Shown here: in pieces, positions 6,570-26,780 of the stretch | Numbering within the stretch: position 1 is the stretch's first letter | Layout: each line of letters opens with the position of its first letter | Program-made: the position numbers and the translations under genes | DNA from: a virus | Taxonomy: Duplodnaviria; Caudoviricetes | Virus record (IMG/VR): IMGVR_UViG_3300013121_000047 | Span: 32,001-96,000 of that record | DNA: 64,000 nt | Direction: 5' to 3' (one strand) | The notes under the pieces: generated by a model | Databases searched by the model: none | The model's input: only the letters and a program-made list of their open reading frames with translations | Told to the model about the DNA's origin: nothing

Positions 6570-7118
6570 TTATTTCACCATAATATTATTAACATATAAC
6601 CATTGTTTTTCTAACGGAACACTGGTCGAATACTGTATGTTATACATATTAACAAGAGAAAAATTATTTACAGTATTTGAAATAACTTGGTTACAATATG
6701 ATGAATATCCATTATAAAATAATGTTCCAACCATAGTACCAACAGTAATATTTGATGCGGCAACTTCAACCCCTCCAGTGACATAAAGAATTTGCGAATT
6801 ATTACAATATAAACTGTAGTTTCCATACGGCGTTGAAACAACAATCGTTCTTACGTTTTCTTTTCCAATATAATTTAAGGCTACTGGATTATTAGAATCT
6901 ACTGGATTAGTAAATTGAGTTGGTTTTTCTTGCGGTAGCGGCCTTTGCGTCGGTGGCATTATAGCAGGTGAAGAATTTGCTCCCCAATACCTTGTATCGC
7001 TTTCAATAGTTGAATTATGCGAATTTATATTATATAATGGTACCGTTTGTACTGTATCAATAGGATTACTATTATACGTTGCAAACATAAGAACAGGTTG
7101 ATTTGATGTTAATGCCAT
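6570..7118 (-). CDS. Protein with degenerate Hint-like C-terminal domain
   Basis: SLYCNNSQILYV (block B-like), VAASNITVG, MYNIQY...WLYVNNIMVK (block F/G-like, lacking HN). Confidence 0.5.
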   Translation of the reverse strand: MALTSNQPVLMFATYNSNPIDTVQTVPLYNINSHNSTIESDTRYWGANSSPAIMPPTQRPLPQEKPTQFTNPVDSNNPVALNYIGKENVRTIVVSTPYGNYSLYCNNSQILYVTGGVEVAASNITVGTMVGTLFYNGYSSYCNQVISNTVNNFSLVNMYNIQYSTSVPLEKQWLYVNNIMVK

Positions 7119-19658: not shown

Positions 19659-22312
19659 ATGAAAATAACTGATACCTTATTAAACAAAGCTCACCAAGAC
19701 GTTGTGTTTGGAGATAAAGGACAAAAAGAATTATTGAAAGGTGCCGAAATTTTATATCGTGCAGTTAAATCAACAATGGGTCCATCAGGGCGCAATGTTA
19801 TTATCGACAATGGAATTTCTCCGCCTTTTATTACAAAGGACGGGGTTACTGTTGCGAAAAATATTAATTTAAAAAATCATTTACAAAATATTGGCGCAGG
19901 ACTTGTAAAAGAGGTTGCATTAAAAACAAATGAATTAGGTGGAGATGGACCGCAACCACTATACTCAAAAATATTAACCCCAACAGGTTGGAAAACTATG
20001 GGTGATATAAAAATTGGAGATACAATTTGCGGAACTAATAACACTTTTCAAAAAGTTCTTGGTGTATATCCAAAAGGAAAAAAAGAAATCTATAAAATAG
20101 AATTTTCTGGTGGTCAATTTGTAGAGTGCTGCGAAGATCATTTATGGAGTATAGTAACAAATACTGGTAAAAAAAAGACAATTACAACAAAAGAATTATT
20201 TCAGTCTGGTGTTGTTTTTTATAAAAAAATACTAGATGCCATAAATTCTATGTTCCAAATACAAGTGTTGAATTCGCAGAAAAAACAAAACTAAAAATTG
20301 ACCCATATACTTTAGGTGTGTTGCTTGGTGATGGCAGTTTATCTATGGGGAAAACTTCTGTCGAAATTTCAGTAGGTTTAAACGAAGAATATATTCTAAA
20401 CAATCTTATTTTACCAAAAAACAATAAAATCAACAAATCTTTTTATATGAAAAAACATTATATAAAAGGAAAAATAGGTAAAATTAACAAGTATCATAAT
20501 GGAAAAGATATAAAAGATTTTTTACGTGAATTAAATTTATTGGGAACATATAGTCATACAAAATTTATTCCTGATTCATATTTATTTTCTTCAAAAAAAT
20601 CTCGTGAAGCTTTATTAAACGGCTTAATCGATACGGATGGTTATATAAATAACAAAAACCTTTTTGAAATTTCCACAGTAAGTGAACAGTTGAAGAATGA
20701 TATTGTTTTTTTATGTCGTAGTTTAGGAAAACAGGTTTGTGTTACAGAATATGCAAGAAAACCAGGCAGCGCATTTGGAACAAGAAAAATTTATCGAATT
20801 ACTGAGCTTAAAGGTCGAAAATATGGAATTCAAATAAAGTCCATAAAACCAACAGGATCATTTACTGAAATGCAGTGTATTAAAGTAAGTAATTCTGATT
20901 CGTTGTACATTACAGACAATTTCATTCCAACACACAATACAACAACCGCGACTGTTTTGGCCTATCATTTATTTAATAGTGGATATAAATTTTCTGCTGC
21001 GGGACGCAATGCTATCCTTTTAAAAAAGGGTATTGATTGGGCAACTGATGTTGTTATCAAACGGCTAAAAGAAATTTCAACAGAAGTTAGAAACGATGAA
21101 GATATCATCTCTGTTGGAACAATTTCAGCAAATGGTGACAGAGAAATTGGAAAACTTCTTTGCGAGGCTATTAAAAAAGTTGGAGAAGATGGAATTATTA
21201 CTGTTGAAAAAGCTAAAAGTGTCAAAACTACGTTAAGCGTAATTGATGGTTTAAATTTAGATGTTGGTTACATTTCTCCATTTTTCGTAACAAATCAAGA
21301 AAAATTAACTTCAGATTTAGAAAATCCACTCGTATTGGTAACAAATAAAAAGATTTCAACCAAAGAGCAACTTATTCCTGTAATGAAAATTGCCAATGAA
21401 AAATCTAGATCACTTTTAATTATTGCAGATGAAATAGACCAAGAACCACTTCACATGTTATTAACCAATAAAATGCATGGAGCGGTAATTTCTTGTGCTG
21501 TCAAAGCTCCATCTTATGGCGATAACAGAATTGATATATTACATGATATTTGTCTTATAACAGGCGCAACCTGTTTTGATGCTGCGCAGTCAATTCAATT
21601 GGAAAAATTAAAAGAAGAACATCTTGGTTCATGCGAAAAAATAGTTGTTTCTAAAATGTCAACCACTTTTTTTGGACTTGGAGAGTCTGTTAAAAAAGAA
21701 CAAATTGATGAAAGAGTAAAAGAACTCAAGCAAGTTTTATCGATGCCCGTAGAGGGCTTGGATGACTTAAAAAGAAATAATGTTAAAAAACGACTTGCTA
21801 AACTTGCTGGTGGCATTGCTATCATTCACGTTGGCGGCTCAACAGAAGTTGAAATAATAGAGAAAAAAGACAGAGTAGATGATGCCTTAAATGCAACACA
21901 AGCCGCAGTGCAAGAAGGAATATTACCAGGCGGTGGAACTGCTCTTTTTTATTGTTCGGAGTTTTTAAATGAAAAAATTTCAAAAAATGAAGAGGGGTTA
22001 AGTGAAGATGAAATTTTTGGTGCAAAAATTGTTTACGAAACTTGTAAAGCTCCCTTGAAAGTCATTGTTGATAACACAGGAAAAAATCCAGAAGTTGTTA
22101 TGGATCATATTTTAAGAACAACCAATTCCTTAAACTATGGATATAATGCGTTTACTCATACATATGAAAACTTAATAGACAATGGAGTATCTGATCCTGT
22201 TAAAGTAACAAGATATGCCCTTGAATTTGCAAGCTCTGTTGTAGGCTTGATGCTTACTTGTAACTGTGTTATTATGACGCCAGAAGAAGAAAGAAACGAA
22301 ATAGAGGAATAA
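19659..22312 (+). CDS. groEL: Chaperonin GroEL (97 aa N-extein + 457 aa C-extein) interrupted by an intein; frameshifted within the intein
   Basis: TMGPSGRNV, ITKDGVTVAK, GDG/TTTATVLA, ISANGD, RLAKLAGGIAII, DDALNATQAAVQEGILPGGG, DPVKVTR; exteins sum to 554 aa. Confidence 0.93.
19950..20938 (+). mobile_element. Class 3 intein with LAGLIDADG homing endonuclease, inserted in the GroEL GDG|TTT motif
   Basis: Starts PQPLYSKILTPTGW (Pro1, no N-terminal nucleophile), block B CCEDHLW, LGVLLGDGS and LNGLIDTDG endonuclease motifs, block F MQCIKV, ends FIPTHN before Thr+1; 989 nt, one base short of 330 codons. Confidence 0.92.
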
Positions 22313-22318
22313 AAAAAT

Positions 22319-22639
22319 ATGGAAAAAGTAGTACTTGGCAGACGCCAATTAGATAAAATTATTTTAGAAAAAATACCAGTATATAGCGCAAGAATGGATG
22401 GAGAAAATGTTTTTGTTGATCAAGGAGGACATGGATTTTTAACAGTTGCTGGAGGTATTGACTCTGGAGAAGTAGGCACAATCGCTGGTTCTCCAATTAA
22501 AGTTTATAAATCAACTTTAAAAATGATAGACAAAAGTGAAGTGATGGCTGGTAGTGAAACTACAAGCGCCTTTCCAGTATATTTGGAAAAATATAGACAA
22601 ACCGTTTGGGTTCCTTCAGATTTTGTTCATATGATTTAA
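22319..22639 (+). CDS. Hypothetical protein
   Basis: 106 aa directly after groEL; N-terminal QLDKIILE motif; no GroES signature recognised. Confidence 0.65.
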   Translation: MEKVVLGRRQLDKIILEKIPVYSARMDGENVFVDQGGHGFLTVAGGIDSGEVGTIAGSPIKVYKSTLKMIDKSEVMAGSETTSAFPVYLEKYRQTVWVPSDFVHMI

Positions 22640-24027: not shown

Positions 24028-24456
24028 ATGAGTATAAATCATCCTTTTAGTGGTTATGGATTTACACCAGAATATCAATTATCTGGGCTCCCTTATGTTA
24101 CGGGTGTCTCTCCAACTGACACAAGATTTAAAATTGAATTTCCTTACGTTACCCAGTGGTTTTATTTAAGATTTACGCAAGTTGCCAGATCCGCTTCGAT
24201 ATCATTTGAATCAACAAATGCCTCAACTTTAAACAAAATTAGTTTTGAGGCTTCTTCGGGAAATATGTTTTTTGGTCCATTCTTTTTAAGAATAAAAGAT
24301 CTTAATATAGAACAGACGCATGGAGTTCATGTTATAGCTGGTTTAACTTCAATTCCAAGAGCACGCGCGCCAAGTTTAGTATCTCCAATAAATTCATCTG
24401 TAACGGGTAGTTTATCTGCTGTTGATACAAACTACTTTATTTATAATGGAATTTAA
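24028..24456 (+). CDS. Tandem paralog 3, putative virion protein
   Basis: Probable start ATG 24028; YQLSGLPYVT, FPYVTQW, LRIKDL, AGLT, DTNYFIYNGI. Confidence 0.75.
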   Translation: MSINHPFSGYGFTPEYQLSGLPYVTGVSPTDTRFKIEFPYVTQWFYLRFTQVARSASISFESTNASTLNKISFEASSGNMFFGPFFLRIKDLNIEQTHGVHVIAGLTSIPRARAPSLVSPINSSVTGSLSAVDTNYFIYNGI

Positions 24457-26144
24457 TCTTTCAACAAACAAGAAATCGGAATTCCAAACATTTTTATCCC
24501 AGTAATGTCTTTTTTGTTAGCCAAATCATTTTCCGCATTTTGTCTATTTACCAATTCATTTGAAAGTGAATTTTGGTGCGCATTTATTATGTTTTGATTA
24601 ACTGATTTTGGTTGAATTGACTTTAAAAATATTTCCTCCCAAGAAATTCCATTTTGAGATTGTTTATTTGCACTGAGCCCTGTTGGTTCGTAAACTAGTA
24701 ATGCAAAAGAAAGTGCCATAATGGAGTCATCAAATTTTCCTCTTATTGCTTGTGTCTTTTTGCCATTCCAAATAAAAGTATCTAATTCTTTTGCAAATCT
24801 AATAGAATTAATTCTTAATAACTTATTTCTTAGTACATTTTCAAGTTGGGATAAAAGTTTTTCTCTAATTTTTGGAGAAGTTGTATGACCAGGATAAATA
24901 TTTTCTCTTTCCTCGTCGGTCATTAAATGAAGGTTTTCTGTAATCTTTTCTTCGTAGTAAAGATTTGGATACTTTAGATCTCTTAGTTTTATAGCCGCAG
25001 CAATTCCAATTGAGTTCATTTCATTGATAATTTTTGCAGTGTTATACTTGTATCCGTATTCAACTAAAAGTTCGGCAAATTTATCTGGTGGCATTTTACC
25101 ATAGAACTCTCCAACTTGCTCATCTGTATCCATATCAATTATATGACAGCAAGAATGATCTTCTCCATCTCCACGAGCGATATCGCTTGTAATGATATAT
25201 TTATGATCTTGCTCTGGTAATGTCCAAATCCAAAAATCATTGTTTTTAGCTTCTTCAGAAATCGGCATAGTGATACCAGATTTAATCCATTCAATAGTAT
25301 CCGCATCAAAAAATGTATTTCCAGAACCTTCAAATCCACAACAGTATTCTTTGTCAATTTTTTTAGCATCCATTGACTTAGTTTCATTCTCAAACCATTT
25401 TTCATCTCTATCAGGATGGACTTGCCAAGGCAGTTTTATCGCATGAAAACCATTTATACCAACTTCCTCGCAATGAAGACCAACTCGATCCTTTCTAAGT
25501 TCTCCAGTGTCTGCATTTTTATAAATGTCATAAAACTCATTTTTACCGTTTGGAGAAGAGAAAAGGATTGCGTCGCCGCCAGTTGTAATGGTTGGTCTCG
25601 CAGCTTCCCATATGTCAGAAAATTTCTCGATGTGAGCGCATTCATCAATAATCAATAAGGAACACGCAATACCACGAACGCTTTCTGGTGTTGTTGGTAT
25701 TGCTTCAATTTTTGAACCATTTGTGAACTCGATATATTTAACAGATTCCTTTTCTGTTTCTGTTAATCCTAATAGCCTTTTAATCCAATCTGGAACATCT
25801 TTAAACGCAATTCGAATTTTCTGAATCATATTCTTGGCAGTTTCTAGACGCGTTGCCATTAACCTTATATCTTTGTCCATATGAAACATGGCATACCATA
25901 AACAATATGCCGAAGTAATTGTACTTAGCCCAAGTTGTCTAGATTTAACAACAATATTGTATTTAAATTCCAAAAAGTCATTAATACAATCTTCTTGAAA
26001 TGGATAAAGTTTAAGAGGAATTCTCCCTTTGACTGGGTGCTGTATGTATATATAATTTTTAATAAAGTGAATTGGATCTTCTTTACATCTCTGTAATTCT
26101 TGGAGCTTTAGATTCACCTGAGCTTTTTGCGTATCATTTGCCAT
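24453..26144 (-). CDS. Terminase large subunit
   Basis: LYPFQ, KSRQLGLST Walker A, LIIDE Walker B, SSPNG, nuclease DIARGDGED and DDSIMA. Confidence 0.95.
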   Translation of the reverse strand: MANDTQKAQVNLKLQELQRCKEDPIHFIKNYIYIQHPVKGRIPLKLYPFQEDCINDFLEFKYNIVVKSRQLGLSTITSAYCLWYAMFHMDKDIRLMATRLETAKNMIQKIRIAFKDVPDWIKRLLGLTETEKESVKYIEFTNGSKIEAIPTTPESVRGIACSLLIIDECAHIEKFSDIWEAARPTITTGGDAILFSSPNGKNEFYDIYKNADTGELRKDRVGLHCEEVGINGFHAIKLPWQVHPDRDEKWFENETKSMDAKKIDKEYCCGFEGSGNTFFDADTIEWIKSGITMPISEEAKNNDFWIWTLPEQDHKYIITSDIARGDGEDHSCCHIIDMDTDEQVGEFYGKMPPDKFAELLVEYGYKYNTAKIINEMNSIGIAAAIKLRDLKYPNLYYEEKITENLHLMTDEERENIYPGHTTSPKIREKLLSQLENVLRNKLLRINSIRFAKELDTFIWNGKKTQAIRGKFDDSIMALSFALLVYEPTGLSANKQSQNGISWEEIFLKSIQPKSVNQNIINAHQNSLSNELVNRQNAENDLANKKDITGIKMFGIPISCLLKD

Positions 26145-26162
26145 GGTATATTTAATAACTCT

Positions 26163-26780
26163 TTATTTTTTAAAATATTCAGCTATAAAAAGATCGGGAA
26201 AATCTTTTGGTGATGATATTGCAATAATTTTTCCATATGGGTGAACACTTGGTTTCGCAACCTCAAGGAGATCTTGAAAATTAGGTGCAAACATTATTTC
26301 GTCAAATAAAACATAAGAAACAGACTCACCTTTAAAAGAAGATATTGTAGGCGGAAGAATTTTAATTGAAGCACCGTTACTGAACTGAATCTTGGTATTT
26401 GTTTCATTTTCTAGTTTCAGATATTTCGTAAACCAAGCTGGCAATAAAGTAAGTTGATACTTAATTTTTTGTAGAAGATATTTACCTGATGCAAACGAAC
26501 TAGCACAAATTATTGAAGACGCGCCGAAAAGTACAGCATTCTGTATTGCAAAAGCAATTAAAAAAGAAGTTTTACCAATTTGTCTTTTAGCAAAAAGAAA
26601 ATCTCCTGAAGGAGAATTGTTTATTCTTTCATTGAAAAATTTTTGATAATCATTAAAAATAAATGGTATATTACCTTTAACGGGGTTTTGTAAAAATAAA
26701 CATTCCTTTGAAAAGAGTGAAAGGTCATTTTTATAGTCTTCTATTTTCGTTTTTTCGTTAATAAGATTGATTATAGACAT
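26163..26780 (-). CDS. Terminase-like ATPase domain only (TerL paralog)
   Basis: QNPVKGNIPF, FNDYQ, KRQIGKTS, FSNGASI, VLFDE, ISSPK; ends before any nuclease domain. Confidence 0.85.
   Translation of the reverse strand: MSIINLINEKTKIEDYKNDLSLFSKECLFLQNPVKGNIPFIFNDYQKFFNERINNSPSGDFLFAKRQIGKTSFLIAFAIQNAVLFGASSIICASSFASGKYLLQKIKYQLTLLPAWFTKYLKLENETNTKIQFSNGASIKILPPTISSFKGESVSYVLFDEIMFAPNFQDLLEVAKPSVHPYGKIIAISSPKDFPDLFIAEYFKK

What the first reader, a model, noticed from the sequence alone, without database searches (positions are those of the whole stretch)
19659..22312. Phage GroEL with a class 3 homing intein inserted in the GDGTTT ATP-binding motif
Seen: GroEL reads ...ELGGDG | PQPLYSKILTPTGW ... 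FIPTHN | TTTATVLA, so the insertion splits the most conserved chaperonin nucleotide-binding motif. The intein begins with Pro (no Cys/Ser1) and has the Trp (DHLW), Cys (MQCIKV) and Thr (PTHN) positions of the WCT triplet. Established: that triplet defines class 3 inteins, which branch through the block F Cys; inteins mostly sit in replication, recombination and terminase proteins. Inference: a chaperonin is an unusual host (I do not recall a described GroEL intein). The folding machine would be inactive until spliced, so splicing could act as a temperature/redox-dependent switch on head assembly.
Basis: partly seen in the sequence, partly recalled or inferred. Interest (0 to 1): 0.88.

Follow-up and report, generated by a model that had tools for sequence, protein, structure and literature searches.

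The report
Self-splicing mobile intein inside phage GroEL
A large T4-like phage carries its own GroEL chaperonin gene, split exactly in the ATP-binding loop by a mobile, self-splicing protein insert (a class 3 intein with its own DNA-cutting enzyme); the insert is real, widespread and apparently undescribed, but this particular copy is broken by a one-base deletion.

Summary
Window 19659-22312 (+) encodes a GroEL. A 330-aa insert at 19950-20938 splits its GDG|TTT phosphate loop, between G88 and T89 in E. coli numbering.

- **Fold:** the insert is a Hint domain plus a LAGLIDADG endonuclease. Its sequence matches solved class 3 DnaB inteins and gp41-1 (E 1e-11 to 4e-7). The AlphaFold model has pLDDT 95.7, and its best PDB matches are PI-SceI and VMA inteins.
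- **Class 3 signature:** Pro1, His64, Trp66, Cys310, Thr328-His-Asn and Thr+1 are all present. They are almost invariant across at least 103 clusters (50% identity) of metagenomic GroELs with the insert at the same site.
- **Mobility:** presence and absence are scattered on the extein tree. One intein-plus and one intein-free allele have identical exteins. Some intein and extein identities disagree strongly. In one near-identical pair, silent differences pile up around the insertion point.
- **This copy:** it has A7 at 20223-20229, where six independent assemblies have A8 and an intact 884-aa frame. This genome as recorded therefore encodes no complete precursor.

No searchable paper and no GenBank phage record shows a GroEL intein. 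This scan already noted it in at least 9 other genomes. The splicing chemistry and the proposed regulatory switch are untested. I rate it a new member of a known kind, of moderate interest.

The parts
19659..19949 (+). GroEL N-extein, 97 codons ending ...ELGGDG. An AAGGAAAG ribosome-binding site lies about 10 nt upstream of the ATG.
   Evidence: Pfam Cpn60_TCP1 profile positions 2-62, E 2.4e-10; sequence
19950..20938 (+). Intein, 330 aa in intact alleles. It spans 989 nt here because one base is missing. It begins PQPLYSK and ends FIPTHN.
   Evidence: Boundaries from P0001 residues 98-427. PDB phmmer hits 6riz 1.2e-11, 6rix 2.9e-9, 6bs8 4.3e-7. AF2 pLDDT 95.7. Foldseek top hits PI-SceI/VMA inteins, E 2e-15.
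20139..20147 (+). Block B His64-Leu-Trp66 (CAT TTA TGG). Block B position 10 is His and position 12 is Trp, the Trp of the WCT triplet. It is preceded by Cys60-Cys61 (block B positions 6 and 7).
   Evidence: Sequence. His invariant and Trp in 101 of 103 cluster representatives.
20223..20229 (+). A7 homopolymer, the site of the one-base deletion that splits the gene into ORFs 19659-20294 and 20318-22312. Intact alleles have A8 and read FYKKNTRCHK.
   Evidence: The first and only difference in the 2,655-nt gene against L001-L004, and the only gap in 5-13.6 kb alignments
20318..20338 (+). First LAGLIDADG motif (VLLGDGS), with catalytic Asp128 at 20330-20332
   Evidence: Asp at least 90% conserved in 72 inteins; Pfam Hom_end 7e-8 and LAGLIDADG_3 1e-4
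20624..20641 (+). Second LAGLIDADG motif (LIDTDG), with catalytic Asp230
   Evidence: Translation; conservation
20876..20878 (+). Block F position 4 Cys310 (in EMQCIKV), the predicted initiating nucleophile of a class 3 intein
   Evidence: Translation. Invariant in 72 of 72 aligned inteins and 103 of 103 cluster representatives. Aligns with the catalytic Cys of MchDnaB1.
20930..20941 (+). Block G Thr328-His329-Asn330 followed by the C-extein nucleophile Thr+1
   Evidence: Translation; invariant
20939..22312 (+). GroEL C-extein (TTTATVLA... to the stop codon)
   Evidence: Pfam Cpn60_TCP1 positions 63-488, E 2e-44. The intein-free relative P0013 aligns end to end with solved GroELs, E 8e-139.

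Best explanation
The stretch is the chaperonin (GroEL) gene of an uncultured, probably jumbo, T4-like phage. The gene lies in the head-morphogenesis module.

A 330-aa mobile intein interrupts it between the Gly and the first Thr of the GDGTTT phosphate-binding loop. The intein is a Hint splicing domain with a two-motif LAGLIDADG homing endonuclease nested inside it. It belongs to the class 3 intein family that otherwise sits in Walker A loops of phage and bacterial helicases, SNF2 proteins and large terminases.

**Inferred mechanism, by homology to the Bethlehem DnaB prototype.**
1. There is no nucleophile at position 1 (Pro1). Cys310 in block F attacks the Gly(-1)-Pro1 peptide bond, helped by His64 and Trp66.
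2. The N-extein is passed to Thr+1.
3. Asn330 cyclises and releases the intein.
4. An O-to-N shift gives a normal 554-aa GroEL.

Until then the nucleotide pocket is disrupted.

At the DNA level the endonuclease cuts intein-free GroEL alleles during co-infection. Repair then copies the intein in (homing). This would explain its patchy yet wide distribution.

In this particular genome record a one-base deletion (A8 to A7) inside the intein breaks the frame. This copy as sequenced cannot make the precursor. The deletion is either an assembly or consensus error, or a recent inactivating mutation.
For: **Shown here**
- Host gene: the Cpn60 profile is split at positions 62/63, and the intein-free relative is a full GroEL.
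- Hint homology: phmmer against solved class 3 inteins and gp41-1 gives E 1e-11 to 4e-7. The C-terminal alignment covers ...C-(I/V)-(K/E)-V...PTHN.
- Structure: the AF2 model has pLDDT 95.7 and pTM 0.92. By Foldseek, PI-SceI scores TMq 0.69, and MchDnaB1 and Msm DnaBi1 score TMt 0.81-0.82.
- Signature residues: P1, H64, C310, T328, H329 and N330 are invariant in 72 aligned inteins. W66 and both LAGLIDADG Asp are at least 90% conserved. The same holds in 103 representatives of 50%-identity clusters.
- Family link: tblastn finds full-length 30-35% relatives in 842 GenBank phage records, in TerL, helicase and SNF2 genes. Cellular and MAG copies read GK|AQPL...THN|T in Walker A.
- Mobility:
  - The extein tree needs at least 14-16 gains or losses.
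  - P0020 (intein-plus) and P0092 (intein-free) have identical exteins.
  - Identity is discordant in both directions: extein 68% with intein 97%, and extein 100% with intein 70%.
  - In the 98%-identical pair L009/L010, 8 of 30 gene mismatches lie within -31..+6 nt of the junction. All are silent (P about 1e-6).
  - Mini-inteins of 157 and 185 aa occur in the closest relatives.
  - The intein is more AT-rich than the exteins (GC 0.285 against 0.34).
- Context: gp23-type capsid, prohead protease, gp20 portal and TerL genes flank the gene.
- Frameshift.

**Inferred only:** the reaction chemistry, taken from PMC2807308 and PMC7664689.
Against: - No experiment shows splicing or endonuclease activity for any GroEL intein.
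- Pfam's own intein models score below threshold (Intein_splicing E 0.05 on the full intein and 3e-4 on the mini-intein).
- The window copy is frameshifted, so this genome as recorded cannot express it.
- Five of 103 cluster representatives start with Cys1 while keeping W-C-T. Sequence alone therefore does not fix the mechanism for the whole family.
- The clustering of differences at the junction was significant in one DNA pair. In the second it was significant only post hoc.
Confidence: 0.85

Rival explanations
1. In this phage strain the GroEL gene is genuinely dead. The A8-to-A7 deletion is a real mutation. Only a 211-aa fragment is made (GroEL 1-97, the intein N-half and a short out-of-frame tail), and the phage relies on the host chaperonin.
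For: The deletion is the only indel in 5-13.6 kb of 99.8-99.9% identical alignments. The record therefore does not look generally indel-prone. JGI's own gene calls on the 185,441-nt contig are also split, into 211 aa and 664 aa. Phage GroEL is an accessory gene, and intein-free and GroEL-free relatives exist.
Against: Six independent assemblies carry an intact frame. Four of them are otherwise identical over all 2,655 nt of the gene. No second substitution has accumulated in the gene, so any inactivation would be very recent. Homopolymer length is a classic consensus error. Reads could not be examined, because read laying served only contigs and did not cover the site.
Confidence: 0.35
2. The frameshift is functional. 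In one version, programmed -1 ribosomal or transcriptional slippage on the A-run regulates precursor synthesis. In the other, the two ORFs form a natural split intein that trans-splices.
For: A -1 slip of tRNA-Lys on AAA AAA A would reproduce the intact protein exactly (FYKKNTR...). The break lies between the N-splicing half and the endonuclease, where natural split inteins are broken.
Against: All other alleles, and at least 100 related inteins, are contiguous. The 100 nt downstream fold worse than shuffled sequence (MFE -7.5 kcal/mol, z +2.0). The run is T AAA AAA A, not a canonical X XXY YYZ heptamer. The first in-frame start of the second ORF is a GTG inside the LAGLIDADG helix, with no properly spaced Shine-Dalgarno sequence.
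Confidence: 0.03
3. The insert is an intein-like relic that does not splice by the class 3 route. Three versions are possible. It could splice by class 1 or class 2 chemistry. It could stay in the protein as a permanent domain. Or it could be removed at the RNA level as an intron-like element.
For: Pfam intein models are sub-threshold. Five relatives begin with Cys1. One contig from an RNA library lacks the 996-nt insert.
Against: All catalytic positions are invariant across more than 100 clusters that share only about 50% identity. That implies selection on splicing. The insert breaks the D87/T89-91 nucleotide pocket, so a permanent insert would kill GroEL, yet the exteins stay strongly conserved. 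The insert-free RNA-library contig has different junction codons (GGG ACA AGT against GGA|ACA ACA) and three further mismatches in the flanks. It is therefore another, intein-free allele (GDG|TST), not a spliced transcript.
Confidence: 0.05

Closest known systems
Mycobacteriophage Bethlehem DnaB intein, the prototype class 3 intein (PMC2807308)
   Same: Both have Pro1, block B His/Trp (His65/Trp67 there, His64/Trp66 here), block F Cys, block G Thr-His-Asn and Thr+1. Both are about 330-340 aa, consistent with an endonuclease-sized insert between blocks B and F. Both are phage-borne and sit in an ATP-site loop.
   Different: The host there is a DnaB helicase. Here the host is a GroEL chaperonin and the site is the GDG|TTT loop, which is not a P-loop NTPase fold. 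Block B position 7 is Cys here and Ser there. I made no direct sequence comparison with Bethlehem itself.
Mycobacterium chimaera DnaB1 and M. smegmatis DnaBi1 class 3 mini-inteins (PDB 6rix/6riy and 6bs8; PMC7664689, PMC6195587)
   Same: There is significant sequence homology (E 3e-9 and 4e-7), including ...C-V-E-V...VPTHN at the C-terminus. The structural match is TMt 0.81-0.82. The Cys/His/Thr triad plus Trp occupies equivalent positions.
   Different: Those are mini-inteins without an endonuclease. They start with Ala after GK of Walker A, in cellular DnaB. DnaBi1 has a demonstrated Cys48-Cys118 redox trap. Nothing comparable has been tested here.
Class 3-type LAGLIDADG inteins in Walker A of phage TerL, helicase and SNF2 genes (for example Vibrio phage 1.161.O, MG592529.1)
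   Same: These are the closest GenBank relatives, 30-35% identical over the full 330 aa. They share the QPLYSK..., CCEDHLW, LLGDGS and THN|T motifs and the same endonuclease.
   Different: Their junction is GSGK|A-QPL...THN|T in a P-loop. The GroEL lineage has GDG|P-QPL...THN|T.
gp41-1 split intein (PDB 6qaz; engineered WCT variant 6riz)
   Same: It is the best sequence hit to the N-terminal splicing half (E 1e-11 and 3e-10, about 31-32% identity). It comes from an environmental phage.
   Different: gp41-1 is a naturally split class 1 intein, with Cys1 and with Phe and Asp at the W and C positions. It has no endonuclease.
PI-SceI and other VMA inteins
   Same: They share the overall two-domain architecture, a Hint domain with a nested LAGLIDADG endonuclease. 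They are the top Foldseek hits (E 2e-15, TMq 0.69) and share Pfam Hom_end.
   Different: They are class 1 inteins (Cys1) in a V-ATPase host, with about 15% sequence identity.

Membership tests
Intein (Hint splicing domain) | Hint fold with splicing blocks A, B, F and G flanking any nested domain | tested here: met
   phmmer against solved inteins, E 1.2e-11 to 4.3e-7. AF2 pLDDT 95.7. Foldseek hits to inteins and Hedgehog Hint domains at probability 1.00. Pfam Intein_splicing is only sub-threshold.
Intein (Hint splicing domain) | In-frame insertion in a host protein, whose removal restores a conserved host motif | tested here: met
   The Cpn60 profile is split at 62/63. Removal restores GDGTTT and a 554-aa GroEL collinear with intein-free relatives. 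In the window itself the frame is broken by one missing base.
Class 3 intein (Tori et al. 2010, PMC2807308) | Non-nucleophilic residue at intein position 1 | tested here: met
   Pro1. Invariant in 72 of 72 aligned inteins and present in 98 of 103 cluster representatives. The other 5 have Cys1.
Class 3 intein (Tori et al. 2010, PMC2807308) | WCT triplet: Trp at block B position 12, Cys at block F position 4, Thr at block G position 5 | tested here: met
   Trp66, Cys310 and Thr328. Across cluster representatives Trp is present in 101 of 103, Cys in 103 of 103 and Thr in 102 of 103. The positions align with Trp67, Cys124 and Thr143 of MchDnaB1.
Class 3 intein (Tori et al. 2010, PMC2807308) | [quoted passage not shown] | tested here: met
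   THN|T. Invariant.
Class 3 intein (Tori et al. 2010, PMC2807308) | Obligate block F Cys nucleophile, two successive branched intermediates, and N-cleavage that persists in +1 mutants | not testable with these tools
   This is biochemistry only. It requires C310A and T+1A mutants and thiol or hydroxylamine lability assays.
LAGLIDADG homing endonuclease (double-motif, intein-borne) | Two LAGLIDADG helices, each ending in a catalytic acidic residue, in an alpha-beta-beta-alpha-beta-beta-alpha core | tested here: met
   VLLGDGS (Asp128) and LIDTDG (Asp230), both at least 90% conserved. Pfam Hom_end 7e-8 and LAGLIDADG_3 1e-4. Foldseek matches PI-SceI and I-DmoI.
LAGLIDADG homing endonuclease (double-motif, intein-borne) | Site-specific cleavage of the empty allele | not testable with these tools
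   Only indirect signs were found: scattered presence and absence, identical exteins with and without the intein, and silent differences clustered at the junction.
GroEL / Cpn60 (group I chaperonin) | Full-length Cpn60 domain with the GDGTTT nucleotide loop | tested here: met
   Pfam Cpn60_TCP1 E 2e-44 for the C-part and 2e-10 for the N-part. The relative P0013 scores E 8e-139 against solved GroELs over residues 15-543. Chaperonin activity was not tested.

The most novel reading that the evidence does not exclude
The GroEL intein may be more than a parasite. It could act as a conditional, redox-gated switch that keeps the phage chaperonin off until conditions permit. A redox trap could form between the catalytic Cys310 and the nearly invariant neighbouring Cys60/Cys61 (block B positions 6 and 7), as shown for Cys48-Cys118 in M. 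smegmatis DnaBi1. Separately, the family contains both Pro1 and Cys1 variants at one insertion site, all keeping W-C-T. That is a natural series for studying how class 1 and class 3 splicing interconvert.
Probability: 0.15. Interest if true: 0.75.

Novelty: new member of a known kind. Interest (0 to 1): 0.5.

Why it matters
Class 3 inteins were defined on helicase-like P-loop ATPases: DnaB, SNF2, RecG and TerL (PMC2807308). Finding the same lineage in the phosphate loop of a chaperonin has several consequences.

- It extends their host range to a different ATPase fold.
- It suggests how an intein can jump between unrelated genes through a locally similar Gly-rich loop followed by Thr (GK|T against DG|T).
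- The family is large, with at least 103 clusters at 50% identity. It shows every stage of the homing cycle: full-length inteins, mini-inteins, empty sites and possibly immune sites. That makes it a good natural system for studying intein dynamics in uncultured jumbo phages.
- It offers new class 3 scaffolds, including 157-aa mini-inteins and Cys1 variants, for protein engineering.
- It raises the testable idea that a virus's own folding machine is gated by protein splicing.

For annotation, these genes are currently labelled simply 'chaperonin GroEL', or split into fragments.

Tried and rejected
- **Read-level check of A7 against A8.** Read laying served only contigs. The long contigs were filtered out and the site was not covered, so nothing can be said either way.
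- **Exact-pattern scans for the A-run region.** Scans of IMG/VR and of JGI metagenome contigs returned nothing. The window's own record is withheld from these scans.
- **The JGI fragment P0123.** It starts downstream of the A-run and is uninformative.
- **Programmed frameshift.** No downstream structure was found, so I rejected it.
- **RNA-level removal.** The insert-free contig in an RNA library is a different allele, so I rejected it.
- **Pfam on the separate window ORFs.** This gave no Hint hit. Only the intact intein or the mini-intein gave sub-threshold hits.
- **The 106-aa ORF downstream of GroEL, a possible co-chaperonin.**
  - It has no Pfam or PHROG family.
  - The Atlas features search scored 0.88 or lower and was uninformative.
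  - An AF2 model from 4 sequences had pLDDT 41 and was not searched further.
- **Literature.** Phrase and term searches found no GroEL or chaperonin intein. The Magrovirus and Staphylococcus jumbo-phage papers mention both words, but not together in that sense. The library lacks most subscription journals and InBase, so absence is not proof.
- **Second intein-plus/intein-free DNA pair (L014/L015).** Clustering in the pre-set -36..+12 window was not significant (P 0.12). Only the +3..+11 stretch stands out, and that is post hoc.
Full report
**1. What is in the sequence**

Two co-linear ORFs on the + strand carry the gene: 19659-20294 (211 aa) and 20318-22312 (664 aa).
- The first reads ...ELGGDG|PQPLYSKILTPTGW... 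and contains CCEDHLW.
- The second contains LLGDGSL, LIDTDG, EMQCIKV and ...FIPTHN|TTTATVLA.
- Pfam places Cpn60_TCP1 profile positions 2-62 in the first ORF and 63-488 in the second. Hom_end and LAGLIDADG_3 lie between them.

So a GroEL is interrupted at one point of its profile. The interrupting piece carries a homing endonuclease. By my recollection of the E. coli sequence, the break is between G88 and T89, inside the D87/T89-T91 phosphate loop.

**2. The frameshift**

The two ORFs are in different frames.
- The database holds an 884-aa protein, P0001, that is 100% identical to both ORFs.
- Four Logan assemblies from four sequencing runs encode P0001 (L001-L004).
- Over the 2,655-nt gene they differ from the window at one position only. 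They have A8 where the window has A7, at 20223-20229.
- Over 5-13.6 kb the loci are 99.8-99.9% identical to the window, and this is the only gap.
- Two further assemblies of a relative in the same 90% cluster are also intact.

The intact reading is ...FYKKNTRCHKFYVPNT..., which leads into the first LAGLIDADG helix.

I could not inspect reads. Only contigs were served and they missed the site. Pattern scans found no further copies. The 100 nt downstream have no stable structure (z +2.0). The second ORF has no credible start signal. I therefore reject programmed frameshifting and a natural split intein.

Whether A7 is a consensus error or a fresh inactivating mutation stays open. I put it at roughly 60:35.

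**3. The insert is an intein of the class 3 type**

The intein is residues 98-427 of P0001 (330 aa), at window 19950-20938. Its removal leaves 554 aa.

*Sequence.* phmmer against all PDB chains gives these matches:

| PDB entry | Protein | E-value |
|---|---|---|
| 6riz | gp41-1, engineered WCT variant | 1.2e-11 |
| 6qaz | gp41-1 | 2.7e-10 |
| 6rix | M. chimaera DnaB1 class 3 intein | 2.9e-9 |
| 6riy | M. chimaera DnaB1 class 3 intein | 1.3e-8 |
| 6bs8 | M. smegmatis DnaBi1 class 3 intein | 4.3e-7 |

The middle of the intein matches PI-SceI and PI-PfuI. The C-terminal alignment places EMQCIKV...FIPTHN on ...RCVEV...VPTHN of MchDnaB1.

*Structure.* An AlphaFold2 model built on 72 aligned GroEL inteins has pLDDT 95.7 and pTM 0.92. 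By Foldseek its best PDB matches are PI-SceI and VMA inteins (E 2e-15, TMq 0.69). The class 3 DnaB mini-inteins cover their full length (TMt 0.81-0.82).

*Definition.* The published class 3 definition is a non-nucleophilic residue 1 co-varying with Trp at block B position 12, Cys at block F position 4 and Thr at block G position 5, plus Thr or Ser at +1. The prototype has Pro1, His65, Trp67, Cys320, Thr339-His-Asn and Thr+1 (PMC2807308). Here the residues are Pro1, His64, Trp66, Cys310, Thr328-His329-Asn330 and Thr+1. Every sequence-level criterion is met. The chemistry itself was not and cannot be tested here. That chemistry is block F Cys attack, two branched intermediates, Asn cyclisation and an O-N shift.

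**4. It is a large, conserved, mobile family**

*Size and conservation.*
- Of the 120 best 90%-cluster relatives, 78 carry an insert at exactly GDG|T(T/S)(T/S/C/G).
- All 78 start PQ(P/D).
- All keep His, Cys and Thr-His-Asn|Thr, and all but three keep Trp, with Phe in its place.
- Overall identity to the window protein falls to about 40%.
- An exhaustive HMMER search with a junction-spanning query listed 150 representatives of 50%-identity clusters. About 120 of them match across the junction.
- Re-aligned, 103 are GroELs with the insert. Block F Cys, block B His, His-Asn and Thr+1 are each present in 103 of 103. Trp is present in 101 and Thr in 102.
- Both LAGLIDADG Asp residues are at least 90% conserved.

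*Signs of mobility.*
- Intein presence needs at least 14-16 changes on a 117-sequence extein tree.
- P0020 (338-aa intein) and P0092 (no intein) have identical exteins.
- Intein and extein identities can disagree sharply. P0037/P0047 are 68% identical in the extein and 97% in the intein. P0054/P0055 are 100% identical in the extein and 70% in the intein.
- The closest relatives of the window carry 157-aa and 185-aa mini-inteins without the endonuclease.
- In the 98%-identical pair L009 (empty) and L010 (occupied), 8 of 30 gene mismatches lie within -31..+6 nt of the insertion point. All are silent (binomial P about 1e-6).
- A second pair, and an insert-free contig from an RNA library, differ mainly in the first codons after the junction (TST against TTT).

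These patterns fit co-conversion or target-site immunity. Both are expected for an active homing endonuclease. They are not direct proof of cleavage.

**5. Relatives and likely origin**

tblastn of the intein against GenBank phages finds 842 records. The matches are full-length at 30-35% identity and lie in large terminase, DNA helicase and SNF2/DarB-like genes.
- The best hit, Vibrio phage 1.161.O, reads GSGK|AQPLYSK...VVTHN|T, which is Walker A.
- In GTDB genomes the same pattern appears in DnaB, SNF2-like and PhoH-like P-loops: GK|AQPL...THN|T.

The GroEL lineage (DG|PQPL...THN|T) is thus an offshoot of the P-loop class 3 inteins. It colonised another Gly-rich phosphate loop that is followed by Thr. 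That step is my inference.

**6. The phage**

- The window lies in an IMG/VR record of 185,441 nt that CheckV rates 51% complete.
- A 78%-identical GroEL sits on a 390,884-nt contig. A jumbo genome is therefore likely.
- Flanking genes are a gp23-type capsid protein, prohead protease S77, gp20-type portal and TerL. GroEL is therefore embedded in the head module. This fits the T4 precedent that gp23 needs a chaperonin, which is established knowledge and was not tested here.
- The portal is only 33-35% identical to its nearest cultured relatives, Flavobacterium phage immuto and Microcystis phage Mel-JY01.
- Near-identical DNA occurs in sludge, activated-sludge, wastewater and aquatic metagenomes.

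**7. Novelty**

- No GenBank phage record in the 2025 INPHARED set covers the intein-plus-GroEL arrangement. All GroEL hits are insert-free.
- No paper in the searchable library pairs GroEL or chaperonin with an intein as host.
- JGI labels these proteins simply 'chaperonin GroEL'.
- The 2010 survey found class 3 inteins only in helicase-like proteins, mostly in P-loops.
- This scan's own notes record the same element in at least 9 other genomes, with two follow-ups reaching the same reading. Those are unchecked AI notes. I reached my conclusions from my own calls.

The element is a new host and insertion site for a known intein class. It is not a new kind of element.

**8. The regulatory idea**

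M. smegmatis DnaBi1, a homologous class 3 intein, is reversibly blocked by a disulfide to its catalytic Cys (PMC6195587). The GroEL inteins keep Cys60 in 101 of 103 representatives and Cys or Ser at position 61, next to the block B His. A redox trap is conceivable, but I have no evidence for one. I keep it as the low-probability novel case.

Noticed in passing
L012:14789-16888 (-) and L013:10836-12935 (-), compared with window 24453-26144 (-): In a close relative, the large terminase is 699 aa against 563 aa in the window. The extra 136 aa sit right after the Walker B LLIIDE motif, and the host sequence resumes with Cys (CAHIEKF). This looks like a mini-intein that the window's TerL lacks.
   Followed up: partly
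G000:C1:142768-146007 (locus L007), outside the window: A second, weak Hint match (33% identity, E 1e-6) lies in large minus-strand ORFs. One of them has what look to me like DNA polymerase III alpha-type motifs. They contain several intein-like junctions (...THN|S, ...SHN|S, and segments starting with Cys). The phage probably carries further inteins of another class.
   Followed up: no
window 22319-22639 (+): A 106-aa ORF immediately downstream of GroEL is conserved in that position in distant relatives (29% identity, E 3e-12 to L010). It is predicted all-beta with a Gly-rich central stretch. It has no Pfam or PHROG family, and AF2 gave only pLDDT 41. Whether it is a co-chaperonin is open.
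   Followed up: partly
proteins P0211, P0217, P0248, P0254 and P0283 (metagenomic GroELs): Five of 103 cluster representatives have the same intein at the same site, but it begins GDG|CQ(P/D)... (Cys1) instead of Pro1. All five keep Trp, block F Cys and Thr. These are natural class 1/class 3 intermediates at one locus.
   Followed up: partly
L016, L017 and L036 (GTDB genome contigs): GroEL genes with this intein at GDG|T also occur on 5-8 kb contigs. The contigs belong to bins labelled an unclassified bacterium, Candidatus Nomurabacteria and Nanoarchaeia. The Nomurabacteria bin (0.6 Mb) showed no other GroEL match with my query. Mis-binned phage DNA against a true cellular copy is unresolved.
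   Followed up: partly
window 19874-21062, run X18 (plastisphere RNA library): A 200-nt contig joins 19948 to 20945 through GACAAGT. This gives an intein-free GDG|TST allele with only 3 other mismatches. Intein-plus and intein-free versions of nearly the same phage therefore co-exist in nature.
   Followed up: partly
window 6570-7118 (-): Another first-stage note calls this 182-aa ORF an extein-less dead Hint domain. It gave no Pfam or PHROG hit at E 0.001 or better. I did not fold it.
   Followed up: partly
window 26163-26780 (-): A 205-aa ORF directly upstream of TerL also hits Terminase_6N in the precomputed Pfam list for the identical locus L002. It is a stand-alone ATPase-domain paralogue, as another first-stage note says.
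   Followed up: no
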